From Parcubacteria group bacterium Gr01-1014_31 (GTDB lineage Bacteria > Patescibacteriota > Patescibacteriia > Buchananbacterales > GWA2-38-13): DNA of 64,000 nucleotides. The position numbers and the translations under genes were made by a program. Positions 2,761 to 63,453 of this stretch are shown here, piece by piece. Numbering within the stretch: position 1 is the first letter of the stretch; every line of letters starts with the position of its first letter. Below the pieces are notes generated by a model. The model was not told where the DNA came from. It did not search any database and saw only the letters and a list, made by a program, of their open reading frames with translations. The stretch is from the NCBI GenBank assembly GCA_007376135.1, contig VMFR01000001.1:77290-141289 (forward strand). Reading direction: 5' to 3'.

Positions 2761-3270
2761 ATGGCTGAAGTTCAACAACCCGAGACGTCTGTCCCGCCGA
2801 AGGCCGCGCCGGACGCGCTGGCCGCAGCGCAGCAACAGGCCGCCGATTACCTGGCGGGCTGGCAGCGCGCCAAGGCCGATTACGTGAATCTGAAACGCGA
2901 GAGCGACGAGCGTTCGTGGCAGCAGGCCAAGTCGGCGGTAAAAAGCGTGGTGATAAATCTGTGGGCGGATTTTTTCAGCAATTTGGAGCTTGCGCTACGG
3001 CACATTCCGCCGGAACAGTCTTCGTTGCCGTGGGTAGTAGGCGTCCAGAACGGCATGAAGCAATTCAACGTCATTTTGAAAAAATTGGGTTTTGAAGACT
3101 ACACCCCAACCGTGGGCCAGCCTTTTAGTCCGTTCGAGCACGAAGCCGTTGAAGCCGTTGAAAATTCAGGGAAACCCGTGCAGACCATTGTCGAGGTCGT
3201 GCGCCCTGGCCTGCGGTTTGTCGATGATAATGACGTGGTCGTGCATGCGCGAGTGAAGGTAGCGAAGTGA
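2761..3270 (+). CDS. grpE: nucleotide exchange factor GrpE
   Basis: 169-aa GrpE-like sequence; sits in conserved hrcA-grpE-dnaK order. Confidence 0.8.
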   Translation: MAEVQQPETSVPPKAAPDALAAAQQQAADYLAGWQRAKADYVNLKRESDERSWQQAKSAVKSVVINLWADFFSNLELALRHIPPEQSSLPWVVGVQNGMKQFNVILKKLGFEDYTPTVGQPFSPFEHEAVEAVENSGKPVQTIVEVVRPGLRFVDDNDVVVHARVKVAK

Positions 3271-3271
3271 A

Positions 3272-3424
3272 AATTTTCAATTACTAATTTTCAATTTTCA
3301 ATCAATGTTACAATTTCCATTGGGTAAACGGGTTTTTTGAAAATTAATTCATTGAAAATTCATTGGAAATTATAAATTGAAAATTTTAGCATTGCTGTTT
3401 GTTCTTATTAGGCTATTGAAAATT
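3272..3424. repeat. AT-rich array of 9-nt motif AATTTTCAA (x3) / TTGAAAATT (x4) in inverted orientation
   Basis: AATTTTCAA at 3272, 3286, 3293; TTGAAAATT at 3347, 3362, 3377, 3416. About 25% GC within a 62% GC genome, between grpE and hsp20. Confidence 0.7.
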
Positions 3425-3478
3425 CATAATCGCGCGGTGGTGAGTGTTTACCCTGCCGTCGCAAGGAGAAACGTCTTT

Positions 3479-3901
3479 ATGCCGATCATCAAATGGGAGC
3501 CGATGTTTTCCGACCCGTTCCAGGAGATGGAGCAATTTTTGGAGCGCTCGGCGGGAATGTCGCGGCAGGGGTTCGTGCCCGCCGTGGACGTTTACCAGAC
3601 CAAGGACGCGGTGGTGGTGGAGACCCCGCTGGCCGGGGTTGACCCCAAGGACGTGGATATCACCATCGAGAATGACGTGCTGCATATCCGCGGGGAGATG
3701 AAGCGCGAGTCGGAAGTGGACGAGAAGAACTACTACCGCAAGGAAGTCCGCGCGGGCAGTTTTTACCGTTCCGTGGCGTTGCCGACCAAAGTGGACAGCG
3801 ACCAGGCGTCCGCCGAATCCCACGAAGGAATGTTGAAGATCATCATTCCTAAAGCGCCGGAAGTGAAGCCCCGCACCGTGAAGGTTGTTGCCAAGAAGTA
3901 G
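3479..3901 (+). CDS. small heat shock protein, Hsp20/alpha-crystallin family
   Basis: 'MPIIKWEPMFSDPFQEMEQ...' with alpha-crystallin domain. SD AAGGAG sits 8 nt upstream of ATG 3479; the track ORF starts earlier at 3377. Confidence 0.8.
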   Translation: MPIIKWEPMFSDPFQEMEQFLERSAGMSRQGFVPAVDVYQTKDAVVVETPLAGVDPKDVDITIENDVLHIRGEMKRESEVDEKNYYRKEVRAGSFYRSVALPTKVDSDQASAESHEGMLKIIIPKAPEVKPRTVKVVAKK

Positions 3902-3988
3902 GCCGCATGCCTGATGCGGCCATTCCGCATCGGGCGCTGCCGGGGCTCATTAGCTTGTCTGATGGGCCCCGCAAGCGAACGTTCCTTT

Positions 3989-4024
3989 ATAAAAAAAGAA
4001 GCTCCCATCCGGGGGGATGGGAGC
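3989..4024 (-). terminator. intrinsic terminator for minus-strand galT-like gene
   Basis: 10-bp stem gctcccatcc/ggatgggagc (4001-4024) with A-run 3990-3998 on + strand, which reads as a U-tract on the minus strand. Confidence 0.6.
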
Positions 4025-5242: not shown

Positions 5243-7132
<1,890 letters not shown>

Positions 7133-7247
7133 GATTGTAGTTGGGTAGGAATGTAGTAAGGGCGGGGTGCCTCAATCGAGAAGCAAGTATCTAGTATGGG
7201 CGGGGCGAGGCACCCCGCTCACTGTAATAAACTAGAATAGGGTAAAT

Positions 7248-7817
7248 ATGTGGAAAGCAATAATTTCGATATTACTTCTACCTCTGCCGACCTATGCACA
7301 ATTGTTCAACGACCCGGGTCCAGAATATGTAAATGAATTGGACGCATGGATGGACGCGAGTCATCGTCTCGACACATGGTTATCACGAATTGACATGGTC
7401 GCGCTAGTTTTACTGTGTTCCGTTTTAGGAATTTATTTAGCTTCGTTATTCGCCTGGCTACGTCAGCGTCGTCAATCACAGAGGATGATCGGAGTCGCCC
7501 CGCTCATAATGGGTCTGCCAGTTCTACCACTTATCGCACTGATCATCTGGCTCAATTTTGTCCACGATAGGATTTATTCCATAGCTTGGTCGCGATTCTG
7601 GTTTGCCCAGATAGTCGTTGGGTTTCCCCTCATGCTGATTACTATCAGCGTCATTCTGCGTCGACTTATACTTAGGGGCAAGAGCACGCGCGCGAGTGGC
7701 GTGTCTTATATCGCACTGATTGGACAGATCATTTTAGTAGTTTCTTTCTCCATTGTAATTGTCTTTGTAGAGAAGACCCTCGACCCAGGGCCATATCCTT
7801 ACTGGCCAAATCGCTAG
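7248..7817 (+). CDS. hypothetical integral membrane protein (low-GC)
   Basis: Signal-peptide-like N-terminus plus about 4 TM helices. GC clearly lower (~45%) than surrounding genes. Confidence 0.45.
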   Translation: MWKAIISILLLPLPTYAQLFNDPGPEYVNELDAWMDASHRLDTWLSRIDMVALVLLCSVLGIYLASLFAWLRQRRQSQRMIGVAPLIMGLPVLPLIALIIWLNFVHDRIYSIAWSRFWFAQIVVGFPLMLITISVILRRLILRGKSTRASGVSYIALIGQIILVVSFSIVIVFVEKTLDPGPYPYWPNR

Positions 7818-7840
7818 ACTCGTTTTTTATTGCGCTTCAC

Positions 7841-8164
7841 ATGCCTAGCTACAACAAACTCATCCGCGATAGGATTCCGGAAATTATTGCGGAGAAGGGG
7901 GAGAAGGCGAAAATCCGCACGTTGACGGATGAGGAATTCGCCGTTGCATTGGCGGCAAAGTTGGTGGAGGAGGCGAATGAAGTTGTGAAGGCAGGCGGTG
8001 ATTCCGCGGAGCTGGTGAAGGAAATCGGCGACGTGCTGGAAGTGATTGACGCCATAGTTACGCATTTCGGTCTGGACCGGGCGGAAATTGAGCGGGTAAA
8101 GACGAATCGATTGGCCGAGCGTGGCGGATTTTCCAAGAAAATCCTGTTGGAAAGCGTGGAATAG
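7841..8164 (+). CDS. MazG-like nucleotide pyrophosphohydrolase domain protein
   Basis: 'YNKLIRDRIPEIIAEKGE...EEANEV...EIGDVLEVIDAI' resembles the small all-alpha MazG/NTP-PPase fold. Confidence 0.55.
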   Translation: MPSYNKLIRDRIPEIIAEKGEKAKIRTLTDEEFAVALAAKLVEEANEVVKAGGDSAELVKEIGDVLEVIDAIVTHFGLDRAEIERVKTNRLAERGGFSKKILLESVE

Positions 8165-46730: not shown

Positions 46731-48655
46731 GATTCCGTGCAGGCCATGATCCGTTCCGGGTGTCCGGCAGCGACCACCCCCAGCGCATCCGCCGCTCAAC
46801 GCTTCCCGACGATTTTTCAGAGGCCGGGCCAGCGGGAGCCGGGTACCTGGGCGCATCGCTGCCGTTGGGGCGCATCCATGCCTGGATCGTTATTTTTACA
46901 ACAGTGATCGCGGTGTTCGCCGTCCGTGCCGCGTATCTTCAGGTCATTGAGGGACAACGCTACCGCCAACTGGCGGACGGCAATCGCATCCGGATCCTGA
47001 CCATCCCAGCTCAGCGAGGCATGCTTGCCGACCGATTCGGGCAGCCGCTCGTTTCCCATACGCCCAACCTTCGGGTTCAGGTGGTCCCGGTTGACCTGCC
47101 GAAAGCCGGCGCGGGCCGAGAGCTCCTGGTCGTTGAGCTTGCCCAATTGACGGGTGCAATGCCGGAGGACATGCGGCAGACCTTGGCAGGGTTGGACGAA
47201 CTTTCGTATGAGCCGGTGGTTATCCGTGAGAACTTGTCGCATGATCAGGCCATTGCGCTGGCGTTGCTTTCCAGTCGCACGCCGGCCGTGAAGTTGGATG
47301 TGGCATCGCGCCGGCAGTATTTGAACGAAAAGATCCAGAGCCTCTCGCACGTGCTGGGTTATCTGGGAAAGATCGGTCCGGGAGAAACGACCGAAGCGCG
47401 CGCCCGCGGCTATGAGCTGTCGGATAGTTTGGGAAAGGCGGGGTTAGAGCAGGCGCTGGAAGACGCGCTGCGCGGCCGTAAGGGACGCGAGCAGATTGAG
47501 GTCGATGCCCGGGGCCAACGCAAGGAGGTCATCAACTACGAGCCTCCAACTGCGGGAACCGACATCGTACTCACCATTGACGCGGGGGCGCAGCAGGTGC
47601 TGGAAGACGCGCTGCGGCGTGCGTTGGCGGTCCATCCGCCTGGCCAAGGAGTAGGTATTGCGTTGGATCCGCGTAACGGCGAAATATTGGCGCTCGTAAG
47701 CCTGCCGACGTTCGATAATAATTGGTTTGCCCGCGGTATCCTGCCGTCGGAATTTTCCAGTCTGGCCGACGATCCGCAACGTCCGTTGTTCAATCGCGCG
47801 ATCCAGGGGGCGTATCCGCCGGGCTCTACGATCAAACCGGTGATCGCCGCCGCGGCACTGCAGGAGAACGTCGTGACGGAACGCACCACCGTTTACAGCA
47901 GCGGTGGCATACGCGTCAATCAATGGTTCTTTCCGGACTGGAAGGCCGGCGGTCACGGCGCGACCAACATGACCTCGGCGTTGGCGGAATCGGTGAACAC
48001 CTATTTCTACTATGTCGGCGGCGGTTACGATTCGTTCAATGGGCTGGGGGTTACCCGGCTGCATCAGTATCTCACCGGCGCGGGATTTGGAAAACCATTG
48101 AACGTTGAGCTGTGGGGGGAGGCATCGGGCCTCGTGCCGACGCCCGCCTGGAAGGAACAGGTTATCGGCCAGCCGTGGTACATCGGTGATACCTACCATC
48201 TATCCATCGGCCAGGGCGACCTGTTGGCAACGCCGATCCAGGTGGCCGCCGCAACGGCAATGATCGCCAACGGCGGCACGCTGTATCGGCCCCACCTCGT
48301 TCGTGAACGCAAACCGGCGGGTGCTCCGCTGGGGTCCCGTCAGCAACCCGTCGCACTGGCGAGTAACATTTTTTTACCCGAGCATCTTGCCGTCGTTCGG
48401 CGCGGTCTGCGGCAGGCGGTGAAGACCGGCAGCGCGCGCGCGCTCAATATGGCCTCCCTGCCGGTAGCCGGGAAAACGGGGACCGCGCAATGGTCCAGTA
48501 CCCGTCCTAACCACGCCTGGTTCACCGGGTATGCGCCGGCCGACGACCCGCAGATTGTGGTCACCATCCTGGTGGAGGAAGGGGGAGAGGGGAGTGCGAC
48601 TGCTGTGCCGGTTGCCAATGAGTTTCTGTCGTGGTGGTCAGTTGAGCGGCAGTAG
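46726..48655 (+). CDS. mrdA: penicillin-binding protein 2 (class B transpeptidase)
   Basis: ATGA overlap with mreD. 'YLQVIEGQRYRQLADGNRIRILTIPAQRGMLADRFGQPL' (PBP dimerisation domain), 'GSTIKP' (SxxK) and 'KTGTAQ' (KTG) motifs. Confidence 0.85.
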
Positions 48656-55809: not shown

Positions 55810-56673
55810 ATGCGACGTCATTACGATTTTGCGCGTAAAACCTACCTTCGACCCCAGCGGCGGCGTTCACAGCAGGCAAGCCGCATGGTGCGCCGGCGAT
55901 GGTTGCAGGCCCTTGGGTTGGCGTCAGTTTTCGTGCTGCTCCTGAACATCGGCGGACGGGCGGCGCACTGGTCGATTTCGGCGGTGCATGTCAAGGGAGC
56001 GAAATTCATCGAAGCCAGCCAGGTGGCGGCAATGGTTCGCGAGCAGATACAGCAACGGCGTTGGTTGGTCTTGCCGCAACGCGTCAAGTCGTTTTTTGAT
56101 ACGATGGCGCTTCGGCGTACTTTGGAGCAGCAGTTCCCATTCGCTCGTTGGAGCGTGGATAAGGACGGCTCCGGGGCAGTGCTCGTCACCATCCAGGAGC
56201 GGCAGGCGCAGCTGGTTTGGGTGGCCGACGGAAAAACGTACTACGTGGATGCTCAGGGGCTGTTGTTCTCCGATGTGCGCGCCGCAGAGAGCAGCGCGGA
56301 TACTGCCGGTGTGATCCGCCACGACGCTTTGCTCGAGAATTTACCCGTTGTTCTGGACGAATCAAAAACTGCCGCCAGCCTGGGAACGGCTGCAGTTACG
56401 CCGGCGACCGTCGCGTTCATCCGTTCCTTGGCGGTGGCACTGTCGGACGGGACGATCGCGCTGCCCGCCGCCGTCGTGAGCTACCGTTACGACCCGGCGA
56501 CGTATCGCCTGGCGCTGGAGACGGTACTCGGGTATGACATTTACTTCGCAGTGAATCAGCCCCTGAGCGATCAGATGGAAAAACTGAAAGTCGCGCTCCA
56601 GCAAGGTATCGCCCGACGCACGAATCTGCACTATATTGACGTCCGGTTCGGGCAGAAGATCTTTTACCAGTAA
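55810..56673 (+). CDS. ftsQ: cell division protein FtsQ/DivIB-like (POTRA)
   Basis: Basic N-terminus, a single TM, then a POTRA-like region 'ISAVHVKGAKFIEASQVAAMV'. Confidence 0.55.
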   Translation: MRRHYDFARKTYLRPQRRRSQQASRMVRRRWLQALGLASVFVLLLNIGGRAAHWSISAVHVKGAKFIEASQVAAMVREQIQQRRWLVLPQRVKSFFDTMALRRTLEQQFPFARWSVDKDGSGAVLVTIQERQAQLVWVADGKTYYVDAQGLLFSDVRAAESSADTAGVIRHDALLENLPVVLDESKTAASLGTAAVTPATVAFIRSLAVALSDGTIALPAAVVSYRYDPATYRLALETVLGYDIYFAVNQPLSDQMEKLKVALQQGIARRTNLHYIDVRFGQKIFYQ

Positions 56674-56683
56674 GGCGCGGCTG

Positions 56684-57685
56684 TTACTTTTTGAGCGGGT
56701 GGAAGCGGCGGTGCGTGGTTTCCGCGTAGCGGTCCGAGGCGTGTACGTAGCGGGTAGTCGTATCCAGCGATTCGTGGCCCAAAAGTATCTGGATCGCCGC
56801 TGGATTGGCGCCGCTCTCGGCCAGATACGTCGCAAAGGCATGGCGGATGGAGTGGGCCGAGAGCGGGACGTTGATGCCGAGCAGTTCGCGGTAGTGTTTT
56901 ACTTTTGCCTGAACGTAATTGGGGGAAATTTTTTTATCCTTTTTCCCGGCATTGCGACCGCGGTACGGCACGAACAAAAAGGGTGACGGGCTGGTTCCGC
57001 GCTGTCGCTGATAGTTCTCCAGGTGCCGCTTCGCACGGTCGGTGAGGTACACGAACCGTTCTTTTTTCCCCTTGCCGCGGATGAAGATCCTGCCCTGGCG
57101 GTCGATCTGCTCCAGCCGCAGGCCGATGAGTTCCGAGATACGCATGCCAGTGGAAAAGAGAACTTCTAACATCGCCCGATTGCGCGCTGCGGCACTTTTG
57201 TTCTTTTCGAATTTTGATGGCGCTTCGATCAGGCGCACAATATCCTCGAATTCACCCACGCGCGGGTGCTTGCGCTCGGTCTTGACCAGCGTCACCGCAT
57301 CCGGGGGCACGGGCGAGGGGTGGTCGTTGTCGATCAGGAATTTAAGGTAGCTGCGGAGGGCCGAGAGCATCCGGTTGATTGAAAAGCTGACTAACCGCGA
57401 TTGTCCATCCTGTGATCCCGGCGTCTTTCGGTCTTGGGAGGTAAGATACGCCTTGTAATAAAGAATAATTTTTTTGTCGACGCGATCAAATGGTATGTTG
57501 CTTCCTCCTAAGAACGCCTGGAACACTTCCAGATCCCGTTCGTAGTTATATACAGTTTCTTGCGAGTAGTTGTCCGTCTGGAGGTGCAACAGGTAGTCAT
57601 CCAAATGGGGGAGGGCAGTCACGGCGTTTTTGGCGCTCATAGAGGCATTCGCGTGTGAATAATTAAAACATCGTTCCGTCATCAA
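56684..57685 (-). CDS. tyrosine site-specific recombinase (XerC/XerD-like integrase)
   Basis: C-terminus 'HSIRHAFATYLAESGANPAAIQILLGHESLDTTTRYVH' has the catalytic R..HxxR..Y. N-terminal SAM-like domain 'ETVYNYERDLEVFQAFL'. Confidence 0.8.
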   Translation of the reverse strand: MMTERCFNYSHANASMSAKNAVTALPHLDDYLLHLQTDNYSQETVYNYERDLEVFQAFLGGSNIPFDRVDKKIILYYKAYLTSQDRKTPGSQDGQSRLVSFSINRMLSALRSYLKFLIDNDHPSPVPPDAVTLVKTERKHPRVGEFEDIVRLIEAPSKFEKNKSAAARNRAMLEVLFSTGMRISELIGLRLEQIDRQGRIFIRGKGKKERFVYLTDRAKRHLENYQRQRGTSPSPFLFVPYRGRNAGKKDKKISPNYVQAKVKHYRELLGINVPLSAHSIRHAFATYLAESGANPAAIQILLGHESLDTTTRYVHASDRYAETTHRRFHPLKK

Positions 57686-57773
57686 AAAAAGATTCGATCA
57701 ATGTCCGCGCAGTACGTCAACAAGTTTCAGAATGATAGGACGTCAGGAGGTGCAGGTAGAAAGTCCCTTAGTA

Positions 57774-57786
57774 GGGGGGGGGGGGG
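57774..57786. repeat. homopolymeric G13 (C13 on minus) tract
   Basis: 'tagtaggggggggggggtgagg'. Lies about 90 nt upstream of the recombinase start on the minus strand, within a ~30% GC region. Confidence 0.85.
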
Positions 57787-57874
57787 TGAGGCGAAGGAAG
57801 AGGTGAATTATTGTCTCTCCGTATTTTAAGTGAGTGTAAGAGATATTATACTCATTAACTTATTTCATTTTATA

Positions 57875-57908
57875 TTGACGGCTAAGGTGCCGTCAATGAT
57901 GTTTTTTT
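57875..57908 (+). terminator. intrinsic terminator-like hairpin in AT-rich islet
   Basis: ttgacggc-taaggt-gccgtcaa followed by tgatgttttttt. Confidence 0.5.
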
Positions 57909-58102
57909 GGCTTATTTTAGCCAACTGTGGATAACTTTAGTCCCCCGATTTCTATCCACTATTTTTATTATTATTGTGTTTATACAATGTTGGACGCCCA
58001 AATGATTATTTGAAATAAGAATTTTAAAAAAACATTTCAGATCAAGATCTTCCACTTTCTATTTTCTATGCCCGCTTCCGTTCTTATTTTTTCTTATACT
58101 AC

Positions 58103-58516
58103 TTACCTATAGACCTTACCAAAGTAAAACGTTCTCAAATACGAGAGCGCCAGAAACGCCAGTGCCGCCTGGATGATATCGATGAGGCTAATGCCGTCTT
58201 TTGAGGCGAGCGTCGGCACCACGACTATGGCCATGGCCGTTAAAAACGATATGGCATCGTGCAGCATGGCATCCCGGTAGCTGATGACGATAGTCTCGGT
58301 CTCTTCTCCCTGGACCCTGTGCCGCCGGATGATCGATCGGTCGCGGCTGAATGCCAAGATCATTCCCGCTAAAAATATCAGTGGCGGCGTGATATTACGA
58401 ATGATTTCTAAGGCGCCCTCAAGCTGATGGTAATAGGTTATGTAGAGGATAAAACCCGCGATCAGGTTGATCCACAGTAAGCCGCGGATGATATCGGCGG
58501 GCTTTTGGTCCGGCAT
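58103..58516 (-). CDS. hypothetical membrane protein (lower GC)
   Basis: 137 aa with about 4 TM helices. GC near 48%. Confidence 0.4.
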   Translation of the reverse strand: MPDQKPADIIRGLLWINLIAGFILYITYYHQLEGALEIIRNITPPLIFLAGMILAFSRDRSIIRRHRVQGEETETIVISYRDAMLHDAISFLTAMAIVVVPTLASKDGISLIDIIQAALAFLALSYLRTFYFGKVYR

Positions 58517-58535
58517 AGATTAAGCGTCGCAAAAT

Positions 58536-59783
58536 AATTTATGGCAGGTATTCCAATGGGTTGGCCGGAATGCTATTGACGCGGACTTCGAAATGCAAAT
58601 GGGCACCGGTGGTGAGCGGGCCAGCTCCGCGAGTTCCCGGAGCGCCGCCGGAACGCGCGATCACCTGTCCCTTAGTCACGAATTGTTTTTCCTGGACATC
58701 GATACGCTAAACGTGGCCGTAGACGGTCGCGATGCCGTCGTTGTGGATGAGCATCACATAGCTGTAGCCACGCGCTCCCCCATCCTTCACCTTCGCTACA
58801 TATCCCGCCTCGGCGGCGTACACTTTTGATCCTTGTGGCGTACGGATGTCGATCGCTGGATGTTCAAAGATGTGACGGTACGGGTATTCGGGGTCGCGAA
58901 AATATGCGGTGATGTAGCGGCCGTCGGTCGGCCAGCGCAGGCGGGGCTTTCCGAGCGCATTAAAACGTTCCGACTCCTGGCGTCGCTCAAGTTCGGCCCT
59001 GATCTTCTTTTCGATGCCAACGATGTCGCTGTTGAGCTGCTGCTGTTCGAGTTTCAACTCCTGAACGTAGGACGAGAATTTTTTCTCTGAACGCTCGGTT
59101 TCCTTCAGCAGGTTCGCCTGATGTGCCGAGTGCTCCGTCAGGTCCTGCCGCTGATCTTCAAGCGTTGTTTTATACTGCTCTTGTTCGGTGCGTTTCGCGA
59201 CGAGCGCTTGCTGCTGTAACTCTAGTTCAGCCTGGAGATTTTTGAGTTTTTGGAGCGCTTGCTGTAAATGTTCCTGAACGTCCTGAAGGCGCTGGTAGTA
59301 ATCGAAAAAATCGGAAAAGGTTTCGTTGGTCACCATGATCTCCAGGTAACTGACCTGGTCGTTCTGGTAGATCAGTTGGAGCAACTGGCGCAGGCGTACG
59401 CGCTGTTCATCGATCTTCTCCCCCTGCGTTTCGATGTCTCCGGCGGTGCGCTGGATCTCCAGATTGGTTTTCGCGATTTGTTTTTTGGTCAGTTCGATAT
59501 CGAGCTCCTTCTTGGCGATATCGTTTTCCAGGAGTCGGAGTTGACCGCGCAACGTCGCCGATTCCTTTTGGGATTCCTTGATGCGCTGCTGGTACAGCTC
59601 GATGCGTTTTTTGATCTTTTCGATCTCCGATTTTCTATCTTCGATCTCCTGGTTATACCCGCTGACCGGGTCATTGGCTGCGACCGCCGGCAAGGATAGT
59701 AATATCAGCACCGTCAGGCAGGTCAAAAAAGCGCTCCCCCACCCCCACCAGCGGCGTCGCTTTATGTCGAGTCTACCCCCCAT
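58536..59783 (-). pseudogene. M23 peptidase (EnvC-like, N-terminal coiled coil) interrupted by an in-frame TAG
   Basis: The minus-strand ORF ends '...IATVYGHV' at TAG (58707-58709). The same frame continues '[55 protein letters not shown]', which carries the M23 HxH active-site block. Confidence 0.6.
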
Positions 59784-59792
59784 AGGAGAACG

Positions 59793-61223
59793 TTAGCTGA
59801 GAGCATTCGCCGCGCGCTTGAGACGCGCGACCGAGGTAGTTTTGCCGAGCACCGGCAGGATCTCGAACGGTCCCGGGCTGGCACGGCGGCCGCTCAGTGC
59901 CACGCGCAGCGGCCAAAGCGTTTCGCCATTGCCCCATTTCCGCTCCTCCATCATGCTTTTCACCGCGGTTTGCAGTCCGTCGGCGGTAAGGCGGTCGTCC
60001 GGGAGCCCCTCCAGCAGTCCGGTGAGTGCCATGAGTACGGTTTTGCAGTCTGCCGCCGTTTGGCTGCGCCAGGGTAGCATCGCGGGGTCCAACACGGGGT
60101 CGTCGAAGAAATATTGAACCAGGGGCGGGAGTTCGTCCAGACGTTTCAGGCGGCTCTGTTCGAGCGCGATCACACGTTGCACGAAGTCGCGCGGCGTTGA
60201 CGGTTTGAGTAGTCCAGCGGTTTGTAATACCGGGTAAGCCAATGCGACCAGTTGGTCGGTCGGTAGGTGGCGCAGATACATGCCGTTGATCCAATCCAGT
60301 TTTTCACGGTTAAATACCGCACCGCTTTTATTGACTCGTCCAAATGAGAATTTTTCGATCAATTCTTGAAGGCTGAACACCTCCTGCTCAGTGCCGGGGT
60401 TCCATCCCAGGAGCGCCACGAAATTCAGCAGGGCGTCGGGCAGATAGCCGGCTTCGCGGTACTCGTCCACGGCGACGTCGCCGGTACGCTTGGAAAGTTT
60501 GGAACGGTCCGGATTCAAAAGTAACGGCAGGTGAGCGAACGCCGGCGGCGTCCAGTCAAGGGCCTGGTAGAGTAAGATATGTTTTGGCATCGAGGGCAGC
60601 CACTCTTCACCCCGGACGACGTGCGTGATCTTCATTTCGTGATCATCAACGACCGACGCCAAATGGTACGTCGGGAAACCGTCCGTCTTCATCAGGATCT
60701 GGTCATCCAGAGTTGCCGCGTTGAAAAGAATGCGTCCGCGGATCAGGTCATCGCAGGCGATCGTCCCTACCTGTGGCATCGAGAAGCGGATTACCGACGG
60801 TTCCCCGGACGCCGGCGCGGTGTCGGTGCGCCCGCGACAGCGGCCGTCGTAGCGCATGGGAAGCTTTTTGGCCTCCTGGTCCCGTCGAAGCGATTCAAGC
60901 CGTTCCGCGGTGCAGGTGCAGCGATAGGCGTGTCCGGAGGCCAGCAGTTGTTCGGCGTAGCGCCGGTACAACGGCAGCCGCTCGGATTGGGTGACGGGTT
61001 CGTGGTCGAACGCAAGTCCGGCCCAACGCAAATTTTGGATGATATTCTCGACCGCGCCGGGCACTAGCCGTGCTTGGTCGGTGTCTTCAATGCGCAGCAA
61101 AAATTCGCCCTGCTGCTGGCGAGCATACAAAAAATTGTAGAGCGCGGTTCGCAGGCCGCCGATGTGCAGCTTGCCGGTCGGACTGGGCGAAAATCTAGTG
61201 CGTACGTTGGCCATGGGCGTCAA
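59793..61223 (-). CDS. gltX: glutamate--tRNA ligase
   Basis: 'RFSPSPTGKLHIGGLRTALYNFLYA' (HIGH) and 'KLSKR' (KMSKS-type) motifs. 476 aa. Confidence 0.9.
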   Translation of the reverse strand: MTPMANVRTRFSPSPTGKLHIGGLRTALYNFLYARQQQGEFLLRIEDTDQARLVPGAVENIIQNLRWAGLAFDHEPVTQSERLPLYRRYAEQLLASGHAYRCTCTAERLESLRRDQEAKKLPMRYDGRCRGRTDTAPASGEPSVIRFSMPQVGTIACDDLIRGRILFNAATLDDQILMKTDGFPTYHLASVVDDHEMKITHVVRGEEWLPSMPKHILLYQALDWTPPAFAHLPLLLNPDRSKLSKRTGDVAVDEYREAGYLPDALLNFVALLGWNPGTEQEVFSLQELIEKFSFGRVNKSGAVFNREKLDWINGMYLRHLPTDQLVALAYPVLQTAGLLKPSTPRDFVQRVIALEQSRLKRLDELPPLVQYFFDDPVLDPAMLPWRSQTAADCKTVLMALTGLLEGLPDDRLTADGLQTAVKSMMEERKWGNGETLWPLRVALSGRRASPGPFEILPVLGKTTSVARLKRAANALS

Positions 61224-62010
61224 TCAAAGCGTAAAAAGGGAAGAGGCAAACAGCAGCGATGATGCGCGGGAAACGGGACGGTTGGCGTCCGAGGCGGTAA
61301 AGCCATTCGAAGCCGTAGTTGCTGAGCCAGCGCGGCGCGCGCGGTATTCTTCCGGACCAATAATCGAACGCTCCACCCACGCCGATGGCCACCCGAATCC
61401 CGGGCAGATGCATCCGTTGGGCGTAGAGCAGGCGTTCCTGTCTCCCGTGCCCGAGCGCTACCAGCAGTACGTCAGGATGCGCCGACCGGATGCGGTCCAG
61501 GATCTCGCGTTTCGGATGTTCCGGGTCGTCAATGGTACCCCCGTCGTCCACGCCCACGATCCTCAACCCCGGGATCTGGGTGCGTAGGTTTTGCGCGGCG
61601 GCCGCGGCAACGCCCTCGCCCGCTCCCAGGAGGTACACCGCGCTGCCAAGAGACGCCGCTTCTCCGAGCAGGACATATGCCGCGTCAACGCCTGCGATGC
61701 GGATGCGGATGTGCTGGCGGAGCAGCCGGCCAATGGCGACAAGACCGTATCCGTCGGGAAGTGCCAGATCAGCCGCCTGTAATGCGGTGCGTAATCGTAG
61801 GTCGTTGCGGCTGGCCAGGAGCATCTCCGGGTTGGGGGTGGCTACCAGGCGGAAACGGTCACCGTTGAGGCAGCTGCGAAAATATCCGCGCAGTTCAGCC
61901 ATGTCCAGCTGGTGGAGTGGTATGCCGCAAAGGACTCCGGCAGGCTGCAGAGCGCTTACCTTAGCGGCTGCCGAGGGGGAATTCTGCGAGTTTGGCATAC
62001 TCTGGACCAT
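61195..62010 (-). CDS. WecB/TagA/CpsF-family (GT26) glycosyltransferase (start uncertain)
   Basis: 'LVATPNPEML', 'DGYGLV', 'YLLGAGEGVAAAAAQNL' and 'VGVDDG' are typical of WecG/TagA. Overlaps the gltX start. Confidence 0.7.
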   Translation of the reverse strand: MVQSMPNSQNSPSAAAKVSALQPAGVLCGIPLHQLDMAELRGYFRSCLNGDRFRLVATPNPEMLLASRNDLRLRTALQAADLALPDGYGLVAIGRLLRQHIRIRIAGVDAAYVLLGEAASLGSAVYLLGAGEGVAAAAAQNLRTQIPGLRIVGVDDGGTIDDPEHPKREILDRIRSAHPDVLLVALGHGRQERLLYAQRMHLPGIRVAIGVGGAFDYWSGRIPRAPRWLSNYGFEWLYRLGRQPSRFPRIIAAVCLFPFYALIDAHGQRTH

Positions 62011-62521
62011 CAGCGGTCAAAATGCTCTGATACAACGTCAGCATGGTAATGAGCTGTGGATTTGTATCGGTAGCAGAAAGCTCCGGAAGTTTGCCGACAG
62101 TACTTTTGACCCGTCCGAGCGTCACGTGCGGCAGCCATTGGTGCACGTCGCGCGGCAGTCCGAGGCTGGCAATGGTCGGCAGGAACGCACGACGGAGCCG
62201 AATGAGGTTTCCCGCAGGGTCGCCGCAGGGCAGAATGATGACCCTCGCCGGACCGGCAGGCGGCAACGTCGCCAACTTTTCCAGCGTTACCGCGAACGGC
62301 GAAGTACACCCGGCAATTTCTCGTCCTTGCGCGGCCATCGCGTTCGCCGCTTCACTGCCCACGTCGTTTCCCAAGAAGCGGAGGGTCAGATGCAGCTGGG
62401 CGGGATCAACCCAGCGGACCTTCCCTCGTGGAATTTGACCGGAAAGACGCTTGATCAAGTCAGCGGCAGATTGTACGCCTTTCAGCGGTAGCTCTGCGGC
62501 CAGGAAGCAACGCCAACCCAT
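61961..62521 (-). CDS. thpR: RNA 2',3'-cyclic phosphodiesterase (2H family, ThpR/LigT)
   Basis: Two HxT/S motifs: 'LHLTLRFLG' and 'PHVTLGRV'. Confidence 0.7.
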   Translation of the reverse strand: MGWRCFLAAELPLKGVQSAADLIKRLSGQIPRGKVRWVDPAQLHLTLRFLGNDVGSEAANAMAAQGREIAGCTSPFAVTLEKLATLPPAGPARVIILPCGDPAGNLIRLRRAFLPTIASLGLPRDVHQWLPHVTLGRVKSTVGKLPELSATDTNPQLITMLTLYQSILTADGPEYAKLAEFPLGSR

Positions 62522-62614
62522 AACTTAAAATAAAAATGTGCTAACAAGTGTAAAAATTATACCATGATTATTGGTTTTTCGCAATCCCGATACCGGAGGA
62601 GTTGCGGCAAGCTG

Positions 62615-62623
62615 CATGCTATA
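62615..62623 (+). promoter_or_regulatory. extended -10 element TGcTATACT upstream of LigB-like gene
   Basis: Same TGnTATACT form as the gap promoter. Sits in an AT-rich divergent intergenic region. Confidence 0.35.
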
Positions 62624-62652
62624 CTAAGAAGGCCGTTCACGGTCCCAGGACT

Positions 62653-63453
62653 ATGCCAATAGTGTTTTCCGCCATTGCCTCTCACTCCCCCCTTCTTTTG
62701 GAGCGCGTGGGAAAATCGAATCGACGGCGTCTGAAAACGACCCTCGAATCGTATGCTGAGCTCGAGCGGTTGTTGTATGCCGCCAAACCCGAAACGTTGG
62801 CCGTGATCTCGCCGCACGGTGACGTGTTGCCGGATGTGTTTAGCATCGGCCTGGCGCACCGTTTCACTGCCGATTTTTCGGCGTTCGGAGATTTTAGTGC
62901 ACAGCCGGAGTGGCGTGCAGATCCGGTCACGGCGCAGTCTTTACGGACGGCTGACGAGTCCTCGCGCCAGGTGCAGCCGCATATCTTAGGTACCCAGCGA
63001 ACGCTTGACCACGGCATCACGGTGCCGGCGGTACTGCTGACTCCGCACCTACCGAGTATTGCGCTTTTGCCGTTCCGTACCGCCGGGCTGGCGGCCACCG
63101 CCCATTGGCGGTTCGGCCAGCATATTGGTAGCGGCCTGCGCACCTCGCCGCGAAGGGTGGCGGTGATCGCTTCAGCCGATCTTTCGCACCGGTTGTCAAA
63201 AACATCACCCGCAGGTTTTTCACCGCAGGCAGCCGCTTTCGACCGTCAGCTTTTGGAATACGTTCGACGGGGTGATGCCGCCTCGGTCATCGGCCTGGAT
63301 CCGGCGTTGGCGGCGGCAGTCGCCTGCTGCGGCCATTTGCCGATCGCGTTCTTATTGGGGATCTTGGACGGCATGAATGTCACCCCATCCATCCTTAGCT
63401 ACGAGGGGCCGTTCGGCGTCGGGCATCTCATGGCCGCCTACCGTTTCGGCTAA
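62653..63453 (+). CDS. class III extradiol dioxygenase subunit B-like / MEMO1-family (AmmeMemoRadiSam system protein B-like)
   Basis: 'PIVFSAIASHSPLL...AVISPHGDVL' and 'DHGITVP' are typical of LigB/DODA/Memo-fold proteins. Confidence 0.55.
   Translation: MPIVFSAIASHSPLLLERVGKSNRRRLKTTLESYAELERLLYAAKPETLAVISPHGDVLPDVFSIGLAHRFTADFSAFGDFSAQPEWRADPVTAQSLRTADESSRQVQPHILGTQRTLDHGITVPAVLLTPHLPSIALLPFRTAGLAATAHWRFGQHIGSGLRTSPRRVAVIASADLSHRLSKTSPAGFSPQAAAFDRQLLEYVRRGDAASVIGLDPALAAAVACCGHLPIAFLLGILDGMNVTPSILSYEGPFGVGHLMAAYRFG

What the first reader, a model, noticed from the sequence alone, without database searches (positions are those of the whole stretch)
56684..58516. Xer-like tyrosine recombinase abutting a ~400-bp AT-rich islet with a G13 homopolymer and a low-GC membrane-protein gene
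The 57690-58100 interval is about 30% GC in a 62% GC genome. It carries a 13-nt G run at 57774-57786, roughly 90 nt upstream of the recombinase start codon on the minus strand, and a terminator-like hairpin at 57875-57908. A lower-GC membrane ORF follows at 58103-58516, then the amber-interrupted M23 gene. This composition and gene content look like a small acquired islet or a recombinase target region. The poly-G/poly-C tract in the recombinase 5' region is the kind of sequence that mediates slipped-strand phase variation. If the recombinase is the chromosomal XerC/D, a dif site could lie in this AT-rich DNA, but I could not identify one with confidence.
Basis: partly seen in the sequence, partly recalled or inferred. 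Interest (0 to 1): 0.55.

Follow-up and report, generated by a model that had tools for sequence, protein, structure and literature searches.

The report
Xer recombinase with adjacent dif site
The AT-rich stretch is not foreign DNA: it is the control region of a chromosome-unlinking enzyme (Xer) in a Parcubacteria (CPR) genome and holds that enzyme's probable 28-bp target site, which is conserved across the whole phylum, while the G13 run is a recent, strain-specific homopolymer that breaks short-read assemblies.

Summary
G13 sits at 57774-57786, a hairpin with a T-run at 57874-57908, and an AT-rich 462-bp intergenic region lies between a Xer-like tyrosine recombinase and a small membrane-protein gene.

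The "acquired islet" reading fails. The gene order M23 peptidase, membrane protein, intergenic region, xer is kept in two related lineages, and no flanking direct repeats exist.

Window 57829-57856 (- strand AATGAGTATAA-TATCTC-TTACACTCACT) is a near-palindromic 11-6-11 site. It occurs in 30 of about 32 protein-retrieved relatives that have upstream DNA. At least 120 metagenome stretches carry it, one copy each. In 105 of those 120, xer lies next to it.

Gene orientation converges there. GC skew was higher on the side away from xer in all 53 related loci tested, as expected at a replication terminus.

This is a single-recombinase xer-dif module, like XerS/difSL in layout and XerA/dif in site shape. 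I found no description of it for CPR.

The G tract is absent from every relative; the sister lineage has CACCTCCTCCC there. It lies in the presumed xer leader, not in a promoter spacer or an ORF. Three assemblies give 13, at least 18 and at least 22 G. Its length is therefore unresolved or heterogeneous, and phase variation remains unproven.

The parts
56684..57640 (-). xer gene: a Xer-like tyrosine recombinase of 318 aa.
   Evidence: Pfam Phage_integrase 3e-37 plus SAM_1. The catalytic R-K-H-x-x-R-H-Y residues align with E. coli XerD 1a0p. Below the NCBIfam cut-offs for XerC (200/335), XerD (196/330) and XerA (178/220). The 318-aa product is the gene call in ENA and Logan. No paralog in the window.
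57829..57856 (-). 28-bp dif-like site, in the xer-sense direction AATGAGTATAA-TATCTC-TTACACTCACT. Arms are 57846-57856 and 57829-57839; the central 6 bp are 57840-57845.
   Evidence: Unique in the 64-kb window at up to 4 mismatches, and present upstream of xer in 30 of about 32 relatives with upstream DNA. The information content is sharply bounded to 28 bp. Arms match 9 of 11 here and 10 of 11 in the consensus; 15-17 of 28 positions match E. coli, B. subtilis or P. abyssi dif. At least 120 metagenome stretches carry one copy each. xer is adjacent in 105 of 120. GC skew and gene orientation switch there.
57774..57786 (+). G13 homopolymer (C13 in the xer-sense direction), lying between the dif-like site and the xer start codon.
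   Evidence: ENA contig k139_137563 ends G13+TGAGG and contig k139_328889 starts G18+TGAGGCG. A Logan contig of SRR8863434 ends in a 22-nt run. The sister lineage has CACCTCCTCCC at this position and L003 has CGGCACCTCCC. No G/C run of 7 or more lies in the 600 nt upstream of xer in any of 36 relatives.
57867..57896 (-). Promoter-like element TTGACG-18 nt-TAAAAT reading towards the dif-like site and xer. This would place dif and the C tract in the xer 5' leader (inferred).
   Evidence: Consensus scan, 10 of 12 positions. Both hexamers are invariant in the window, the sister lineage and L003, while the spacer varies.
57874..57908 (+). Hairpin or palindrome ATTGACGGC-TAAGGT-GCCGTCAAT followed by T7. 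Terminator-like on the + strand; its arm on the xer-sense strand is the -35 hexamer.
   Evidence: The 8-bp stem is invariant and the 8-nt centre is free to vary in three lineages. There are no compensatory changes, so an RNA structure and a protein-binding site cannot be told apart.
57926..57934 (-). Single perfect DnaA-box 9-mer, TTATCCACA.
   Evidence: Boxes are not enriched in the window (10 found against 6 +/- 2.8 expected). This one is conserved in the window, the sister lineage and L003, but not in more distant relatives.
58103..58516 (-). 137-aa membrane protein of unknown function; a neighbour, not shown to be part of the module.
   Evidence: No Pfam or NCBIfam hit. Only 13 homologs among 5.8 billion proteins, at 52-100% identity; the identical one is named from Parcubacteria group bacterium Gr01-1014_31. 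Syntenic in L003 and L162-L165.
58539..59783 (-). M23 peptidase gene (414 codons) with an in-frame TAG at 58707-58709; a neighbour.
   Evidence: Window base 58708 is T where the ENA contig has G, giving TAG instead of TCG (Ser). The ENA gene call is intact at 414 aa, and L003 also has TCG.
55810..56673 (+). Last gene of the long + strand block (FtsQ-like position, no Pfam hit). It converges on the xer 3' end with a 10-nt gap.
   Evidence: Nearly all long ORFs from 1 to 56673 are on the + strand, and those from 56684 to 62521 are on the - strand.

Best explanation
The region is the xer-dif module of a Parcubacteria (Patescibacteria/CPR) chromosome.

- **Module.** One Xer-type tyrosine recombinase gene (56684-57640, - strand) is preceded by its own recombination site. 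The site is a 28-bp near-palindrome (57829-57856) with two 11-bp arms and a 6-bp central region.
- **Mechanism (inferred by analogy).** As with XerA/dif, XerH/difH and XerS/difSL, two Xer protomers would bind each site. Two sister sites would synapse at the end of replication, and strand exchange across the central 6 bp would resolve chromosome dimers.
- **Location.** The site lies where the two replication arms meet. Gene orientation converges there and GC skew drops.
- **Transcription.** A conserved promoter-like element just upstream reads through the site into xer. Xer bound at dif could therefore also dampen its own transcription. This is inferred, not shown.
- **AT-richness.** The DNA is AT-rich because it is a long non-coding control region, not because it was acquired.
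- **G13 tract.** It is a recent homopolymer that arose in this strain from an interrupted C-rich stretch in the non-conserved spacer between dif and the start codon. It is hard to sequence or is length-variable. It has no conserved role.
For: **Shown**
- Xer-type protein with a full catalytic set.
- The 28-bp site is unique in the window and lies upstream of xer in 30 of about 32 protein-retrieved relatives with upstream DNA (Xer 48-87% identical). It has a sharply bounded information profile.
- Retrieval by the site alone gave at least 120 metagenome stretches with one copy each, including contigs of 882, 847, 584 and 428 kb. In 105 of 120 a xer homolog lies next to the site and reads away from it, with a median gap of 44 nt.
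- GC skew is higher on the side away from xer in 24 of 24 and 29 of 29 loci. In the second set the sign flips (29 of 29 positive, 24 of 29 negative; Wilcoxon p = 4e-9).
- Coding strands converge: 119.5 kb against 14.4 kb on one side, and 111 kb against 54 kb (including xer) on the other. A side effect on skew remains independent of coding strand (-0.032, CI -0.048 to -0.015).
- In the window, skew drops from +0.063 to +0.015 at the site, below every same-size stretch of the left arm.
- 15-17 of 28 positions are shared with known dif sites. Cortez et al. (PMC2958812) report 14 of 28 shared between the Pyrococcus sites and the bacterial dif consensus.
- Synteny and a 124-nt non-coding block are conserved in L003 and the sister lineage. 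The tract position is not conserved.

**Inferred**
- Recombination activity, use of a single recombinase, and autoregulation.
Against: - No experiment exists.
- In this genome the skew falls but does not turn negative over the 15.6 kb available on the far side.
- Genome-wide uniqueness of the site and the absence of a second Xer could not be checked for this MAG; only 64 kb was in hand.
- FtsK was not examined.
- Two relatives (L022, L031) show no site within 6 kb.
- A subset of relatives has a second, degenerate recombinase-like gene between the site and xer. 'Single recombinase' may therefore not hold for the whole phylum.
- The promoter is only a consensus match.
Confidence: 0.78

Rival explanations
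1. The G/C homopolymer is a contingency locus. Slipped-strand changes in its length switch or tune xer expression.
For: The run is far longer than any other in the window or in 1.09 Mb of related DNA. Three assemblies that carry this exact Xer give 13, at least 18 and at least 22. It lies upstream of the xer start codon.
Against: It is absent from every relative, including the sister lineage, which has CACCTCCTCCC. It lies downstream of the only conserved promoter-like element, not between -35 and -10. No xer-sense ORF contains it (read from the sequence). The leader is not unusually structured, z = -0.6. Length differences of this kind can also come from Illumina or PCR trouble with long poly-G.
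Confidence: 0.15
2. The 28-bp palindrome is only an operator or promoter element of xer, and the true dif lies elsewhere in the genome.
For: It contains TATAAT and sits 40-110 nt from the start codon in most relatives.
Against: It has the exact 11-6-11 Xer geometry with ATAA-N6-TTA inner arms. It is far more conserved than a promoter needs to be: the same 28-mer recurs across relatives whose Xer is only 55-72% identical. It marks the skew and orientation switch in 53 of 53 loci. It stays linked even when a 1.4-kb gene separates it from xer, and it occurs in either orientation relative to xer.
Confidence: 0.08
3. A small acquired islet or integrated element: an integrase with its attachment site plus cargo (the membrane protein).
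For: Lower GC over 57000-60000 (49-55%), with an integrase-family gene at the edge.
Against: The same genes sit in the same order in L003 and in four contigs of a sister lineage. No flanking direct repeats and no adjacent tRNA. The neighbours are core genes (gltX, the M23 peptidase and the cell-wall and tRNA-synthetase gene block to the left). No match to the site in viral contigs. The membrane-protein family is confined to close relatives.
Confidence: 0.03
4. The AT-rich DNA with a DnaA box is the replication origin.
For: A perfect TTATCCACA at 57926-57934, conserved in three lineages, within AT-rich DNA.
Against: Only one perfect box in this intergenic region, and boxes are not enriched in the window. 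No dnaA or dnaN among the gene calls nearby. The skew polarity is that of a terminus (positive then negative), and genes converge rather than diverge.
Confidence: 0.02
5. The G run is an assembly or sequencing artefact and the two flanks are not truly joined.
For: Two short-read assemblies break exactly there, and the run lengths disagree.
Against: The left ENA contig reads through G13 into TGAGG, which is the start of the right contig. Relatives have the two flanks contiguous with homologous sequence on both sides. A 3' poly-G read artefact would appear as poly-C on the right-hand contig, not poly-G (my reasoning).
Confidence: 0.05

Closest known systems
XerS/difSL of streptococci and lactococci (Le Bourgeois 2007, PMC1914069; review PMC5357621)
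   Same: One recombinase gene lies immediately next to its dif site, forming a single module at the terminus.
   Different: difSL is 31 bp with an 11-bp central region and unequal arms. Here the site is 28 bp, 11-6-11 and nearly symmetric. The protein scores only 96 bits against the XerS cut-off of 267.
Archaeal XerA/dif (Cortez 2010, PMC2958812)
   Same: A 28-bp site with 11-bp near-perfect inverted arms and a 6-bp spacer, with ATAA-N6-TTA inner arms. The window site shares 15 of 28 positions with P. abyssi dif. Some archaea also have xerA next to dif.
   Different: This is a bacterial (CPR) lineage. The NCBIfam XerA score is 178, below the cut-off of 220. The best solved relative by sequence is E. 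coli XerD. Whether FtsK is needed is unknown.
XerH/difH of Helicobacter and Campylobacter (PMC3325230, PMC5241119)
   Same: A single Xer acting on a near-palindromic site.
   Different: The similarity to XerH is distant (5jjv, 3e-12), and the arm sequences differ.
'Cand' subgroup of Xer-related tyrosine recombinases from candidate phyla (Smyshlyaev 2021, PMC8138268)
   Same: Probably the same protein group: Xer-like simple tyrosine recombinases of candidate phyla.
   Different: The passages I read from that paper describe the subgroup only as a protein group and name no DNA site. Membership of this protein in their subgroup was not tested here.
Homopolymer-driven phase variation (contingency loci of Neisseria, Haemophilus, Campylobacter; from general knowledge)
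   Same: A long G/C run close to the 5' end of a gene, with discordant lengths between assemblies.
   Different: It is not in a coding frame and not between -35 and -10. It is not conserved in relatives. No read-level evidence is available.

Membership tests
Xer/dif chromosome dimer resolution system | Tyrosine recombinase with a Xer-type two-domain build and the catalytic R-K-H-R-H-Y set | tested here: met
   Pfam Phage_integrase plus SAM_1. All six residues align with XerD 1a0p.
Xer/dif chromosome dimer resolution system | Protein reaches a curated equivalog cut-off (XerC, XerD, XerA or XerS) | tested here: not met
   XerC 200/335, XerD 196/330, XerA 178/220, XerS 96/267. It is Xer-like but belongs to none of the named equivalogs.
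Xer/dif chromosome dimer resolution system | Site of about 28 bp: two 11-bp partly symmetric arms around a 6-8 bp central region | tested here: met
   11-6-11 layout. Arms match 9 of 11 in the window and 10 of 11 in the consensus. Information content is bounded to 28 bp.
Xer/dif chromosome dimer resolution system | One site per chromosome | tested here: inconclusive
   Unique in the 64-kb window at up to 4 mismatches. Every metagenome stretch has one exact match, including contigs of 428-882 kb. The full genome of this MAG was not available.
Xer/dif chromosome dimer resolution system | Site at the replication terminus (skew switch, convergence of gene orientation) | tested here: met
   Relatives: 24 of 24 and 29 of 29 loci show the switch, and the side effect is independent of coding strand. 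In the window itself there is a drop but no sign change over 15.6 kb.
Xer/dif chromosome dimer resolution system | Recombination at the site, and coupling to FtsK and cell division | not testable with these tools
   Needs biochemistry or genetics.
Single-recombinase xer-dif module (XerS/difSL type) | Recombinase gene directly adjacent to the site | tested here: met
   188 nt apart in the window. Adjacent in 105 of 120 loci retrieved by the site alone, with a median gap of 44 nt.
Single-recombinase xer-dif module (XerS/difSL type) | Only one Xer in the genome | tested here: inconclusive
   No paralog in the 64-kb window, and the near-identical arms suggest one binding specificity. The whole genome was not seen. 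Some relatives carry a second, degenerate recombinase-like gene.
Phase-variable homopolymer (contingency locus) | Tract inside a coding frame or between the -35 and -10 hexamers | tested here: not met
   The tract lies about 80 nt downstream of the conserved TTGACG-18-TAAAAT element and 134 nt upstream of the ATG.
Phase-variable homopolymer (contingency locus) | Length heterogeneity within a population | tested here: inconclusive
   13, at least 18 and at least 22 in three assemblies.
Genomic island / integrative element | Flanking direct repeats, and presence/absence polymorphism among relatives | tested here: not met
   No meaningful repeats. The segment is present and syntenic in L003 and L162-L165.
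oriC | Cluster of DnaA boxes with origin-type skew polarity | tested here: not met
   One perfect box in this intergenic region and no enrichment in the window. The polarity is that of a terminus.

The most novel reading that the evidence does not exclude
Patescibacteria as a phylum resolve chromosome dimers with a single Xer whose 28-bp dif site (consensus ACTGAGTATAA-TATCYC-TTACACTCAGT) sits in the promoter or leader of its own gene. This would give a self-regulating module that marks the replication terminus in CPR genomes that carry it. One subclade has added a second, catalytically degenerate recombinase fused to a nuclease-like domain between dif and xer. I found no description of this site in the paper library.
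Probability: 0.6. Interest if true: 0.6.

Novelty: new member of a known kind. Interest (0 to 1): 0.5.

Why it matters
**Practical use.** A 28-bp marker for the replication terminus would help several tasks in CPR genomics. These organisms are known almost only from metagenome bins. The marker could help close and orient MAGs, check growth-rate estimates that rely on origin and terminus positions, and look for elements that integrate at dif.

**Biology.** The result extends single-recombinase Xer systems to a very large bacterial radiation. It also gives a ready substrate for biochemical tests.

**The G tract.** Its main importance is practical. The deposited length of 13 should be treated as uncertain, and the locus breaks short-read assemblies.

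Tried and rejected
- **Non-coding RNA.** Rfam found nothing credible in 57550-58250. The best match was frnS at 20.9 bits against a gathering score of 60. No tRNA or tmRNA is nearby.
- **Leader structure.** The 220-nt presumed leader is not unusually structured, z = -0.6.
- **Hairpin as the recombinase core site.** I first considered the hairpin, with its 9-bp arms and 6-bp centre. I dropped this because it is conserved only in the three closest lineages and its centre varies in sequence, while the phylum-wide element is the neighbouring 28-mer.
- **oriC.** Rejected on DnaA-box counts and skew polarity.
- **Island test.** Direct-repeat and island checks were negative.
- **Viral contigs.** No match to the site, so there is no sign of phages carrying it.
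- **Contig ends.** I tested whether metagenome contigs end at the site more often than chance. They do not significantly (5 against 2.0 expected within 50 nt, P = 0.05; 7 against 4.0 within 100 nt, P = 0.11).
- **Failed look-ups.** Exact look-ups with the 333-aa Xer ORF and the 287-aa ORF at 55810-56673 found nothing, probably because the recorded gene calls start at later codons.
- **Literature.** Searches for dif or Xer in CPR, Patescibacteria, Saccharibacteria or Parcubacteria, and for the motif sequence itself, found nothing relevant.
Full report
**1. What is in the sequence**

The G run is exactly at 57774-57786. It is the only G/C run of 9 or more in the window. The next longest is 7, and the longest in 1.09 Mb of related loci is 10.

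The hairpin ATTGACGGC-TAAGGT-GCCGTCAAT (57874-57897) followed by T7 is real and stable.

The stretch between the recombinase start and the stop of the 137-aa ORF (57641-58102, 462 bp) is 37% GC, against 60.6% for the window. Only the 57800-58100 core reaches 30-34%.

The recombinase has Pfam Phage_integrase and SAM_1 domains. All six catalytic residues align with E. coli XerD. It stays below the curated cut-offs for XerC, XerD, XerA and XerS.

Its probable start is the ATG at 57640, giving 318 aa. This is the product recorded in two public gene sets, and it aligns with the annotated xer start in L003.

**2. Whose genome, and is the segment acquired?**

The 137-aa protein is identical to a protein of the MAG "Parcubacteria group bacterium Gr01-1014_31". 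Relatives of the recombinase come from Parcubacteria, Kaiserbacteria, Saccharibacteria and other Patescibacteria MAGs, most at 55-87% identity.

The closest relative is L003, with Xer 87% identical. It has the same order: M23 peptidase, 137-aa membrane protein, a 435-bp intergenic region, xer, and a convergent gene homologous to the window's 55810-56673 ORF. A sister lineage, with the membrane protein 96% identical, was assembled in four other samples and has the same order.

There are no flanking direct repeats and no adjacent tRNA. The membrane-protein family has 13 members, the named ones from Parcubacteria or unclassified-bacterium MAGs. The "acquired islet" reading is therefore not supported.

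**3. The dif-like site**

A palindrome scan of the DNA upstream of xer in the relatives turned up one recurring element. A pattern scan then found TGAGTATWA-N6-TTAYACTCA with at most 3 mismatches in 30 of about 32 relatives that have upstream DNA. Most copies lie 40-250 nt before the xer start. There is exactly one copy in the 64-kb window, at 57829-57856.

In the xer-sense direction the window site reads AATGAGTATAA-TATCTC-TTACACTCACT. The consensus is ACTGAGTATAA-TATCYC-TTACACTCAGT. The information content is high over 28 positions and falls off on both sides.

The arms are 11 bp each and match 9 of 11 (window) or 10 of 11 (consensus) as inverted repeats. The centre is 6 bp. The inner arms read ATAA-N6-TTA, as in known dif sites. 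Fifteen to seventeen of 28 positions match E. coli, B. subtilis or P. abyssi dif (P. abyssi sequence from PMC2958812). Cortez et al. report 14 of 28 shared between the Pyrococcus sites and the bacterial dif consensus.

**4. Linkage tested from the site side**

Scanning metagenome contigs with the site alone gave at least 120 stretches. Each has one match, and they include contigs of 882, 847, 584 and 428 kb.

In 105 of 120 a xer homolog lies next to the site and reads away from it. In 90 the site has one orientation and in 15 it is inverted. The median gap is 44 nt. Most of the remaining 15 stretches simply end too soon. Viral contigs have no match.

**5. Terminus evidence**

| Test | Result |
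|---|---|
| GC skew, side away from xer vs xer side, protein-retrieved loci | higher in 24 of 24 |
| GC skew, site-retrieved loci | higher in 29 of 29; far side positive 29 of 29, xer side negative 24 of 29; p = 4e-9 |
| Coding bases, far side (towards site vs away) | 119.5 kb vs 14.4 kb |
| Coding bases, xer side (opposite strand vs xer strand, xer included) | 111 kb vs 54 kb |
| Side effect on skew after allowing for coding strand | -0.032 (CI -0.048 to -0.015) |

This positive-to-negative pattern is the polarity of a terminus, not an origin.

In the window itself, nearly all long ORFs from 1 to 56673 are on the + strand, and those from 56684 to 62521 are on the - strand. Skew falls from +0.063 over 57.8 kb to +0.015 over the 15.6 kb I could obtain on the other side. 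That value is below every same-size stretch of the left arm, but it is not negative.

**6. Anatomy of the intergenic region**

Aligning the window with the sister lineage and L003 shows one conserved block of about 124 nt. It contains a single DnaA-box 9-mer (57926-57934), the hairpin, and the 28-bp site. Everything else is poorly conserved.

A promoter-like TTGACG-18-TAAAAT (57896-57867, - strand) has both hexamers invariant in all three lineages. Its -35 hexamer is one arm of the hairpin. The 8-bp stem is invariant and the 8-nt centre varies freely. I therefore cannot say whether the hairpin works as an RNA terminator on the + strand or as a protein-binding palindrome.

If this promoter is used, the site and the C tract lie in a leader of about 220 nt. 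That leader is not unusually structured, and Rfam finds nothing credible. Autoregulation by Xer bound at the site is my inference.

**7. The G tract**

- No relative has a G/C run of 7 or more in the 600 nt upstream of xer.
- At the homologous position the sister lineage has CACCTCCTCCC and L003 has CGGCACCTCCC. The run therefore arose recently from an interrupted C-rich stretch.
- In ENA assembly ERZ27284378 the locus is split. One contig ends ...TAGTA-G13-TGAGG and the other starts G18-TGAGGCG.
- A Logan contig of run SRR8863434 that carries the identical Xer ends in a 22-nt run.
- The flanks are truly adjacent. The left contig reads 5 nt into the right one, and relatives are collinear.

The run is therefore real, but its length is unresolved or heterogeneous. 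It is not in a coding frame and not between promoter hexamers, so the two classic phase-variation mechanisms do not apply. An effect through the leader cannot be excluded.

**8. Comparison with known systems**

In layout this is like XerS/difSL, with the recombinase gene beside its site. In site geometry it is like archaeal XerA/dif and canonical dif (PMC5357621).

A "Cand" subgroup of Xer-related recombinases from candidate phyla has been defined on protein sequence (PMC8138268).

Six searches of the paper library, including one for the motif sequence, found no description of a dif site in CPR (one search returned only the background Xer literature). The library is incomplete, so this is absence of evidence only.

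**9. Verdict**

This is a new member of a known kind: a single-recombinase-type xer-dif module.

- That 57829-57856 is the Xer target and marks the terminus: about 0.8.
- That the G tract has no conserved function: about 0.6.
- That the G tract acts as a switch: about 0.15.

Noticed in passing
window 58707-58709 (base 58708): The in-frame amber codon in the M23 peptidase gene is a single-base difference. The window has T (TAG on the - strand) where the ENA contig of the same population has G (TCG, Ser), and L003 also has TCG. It is the only mismatch in 6227 nt. This points to a rare variant or a consensus error, not stop-codon recoding.
   Followed up: yes
L005 4608-5978; L100 3669-5048; about 15 metagenome loci with a gap of about 1.36 kb between the site and xer (e.g. 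L066, L076, L084, L107, L122, L134): In a subclade of relatives, a 457-460-aa gene lies between the dif-like site and xer. It has SAM-like and Phage_integrase domains, with some catalytic positions apparently substituted (by eye, e.g. GLKVSE where XerD has GLRVSE), plus a C-terminal part with a weak PD-(D/E)XK hit. It may be a second, non-catalytic Xer partner.
   Followed up: partly
L019-L038 (Kaiserbacteria-type loci) and 15 of 105 metagenome loci (e.g. L045, L046, L093, L094): The slightly asymmetric site occurs in the opposite orientation relative to xer in a minority of lineages. Its orientation is therefore not fixed by the gene next to it.
   Followed up: partly
window 57926-57934 (- strand): A perfect DnaA box, TTATCCACA, lies 29 nt upstream of the xer -35 hexamer. 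It is conserved in the window, the sister lineage and L003, but not in more distant relatives. It might couple xer transcription to DnaA; this was not tested.
   Followed up: partly
L022 and L031: Two relatives with 6 kb of DNA upstream of xer show no match to the site within the locus. L022 is a 742-kb contig labelled Dehalococcoidia. In these, the site may lie elsewhere or may have diverged.
   Followed up: no
window 48138-48220 (- strand): ARAGORN calls an 83-nt tRNA-Arg(CCG) that did not reach the Rfam tRNA gathering score. It may be an unusual or intron-bearing tRNA, or a false call.
   Followed up: no
window 62400-62700, 3001-4000 and 7001-8000: Other local GC dips (45-51%) occur elsewhere in the window. 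The first lies between the divergent LigT-like and LigB-like genes. Low-GC intergenic DNA is therefore not unique to the xer region.
   Followed up: no
metagenome loci L061, L069, L081, L082, L090, L105, L111: Several contigs end within 100 nt of the site. The excess over chance is not significant (7 against 4.0 expected, P = 0.11).
   Followed up: yes
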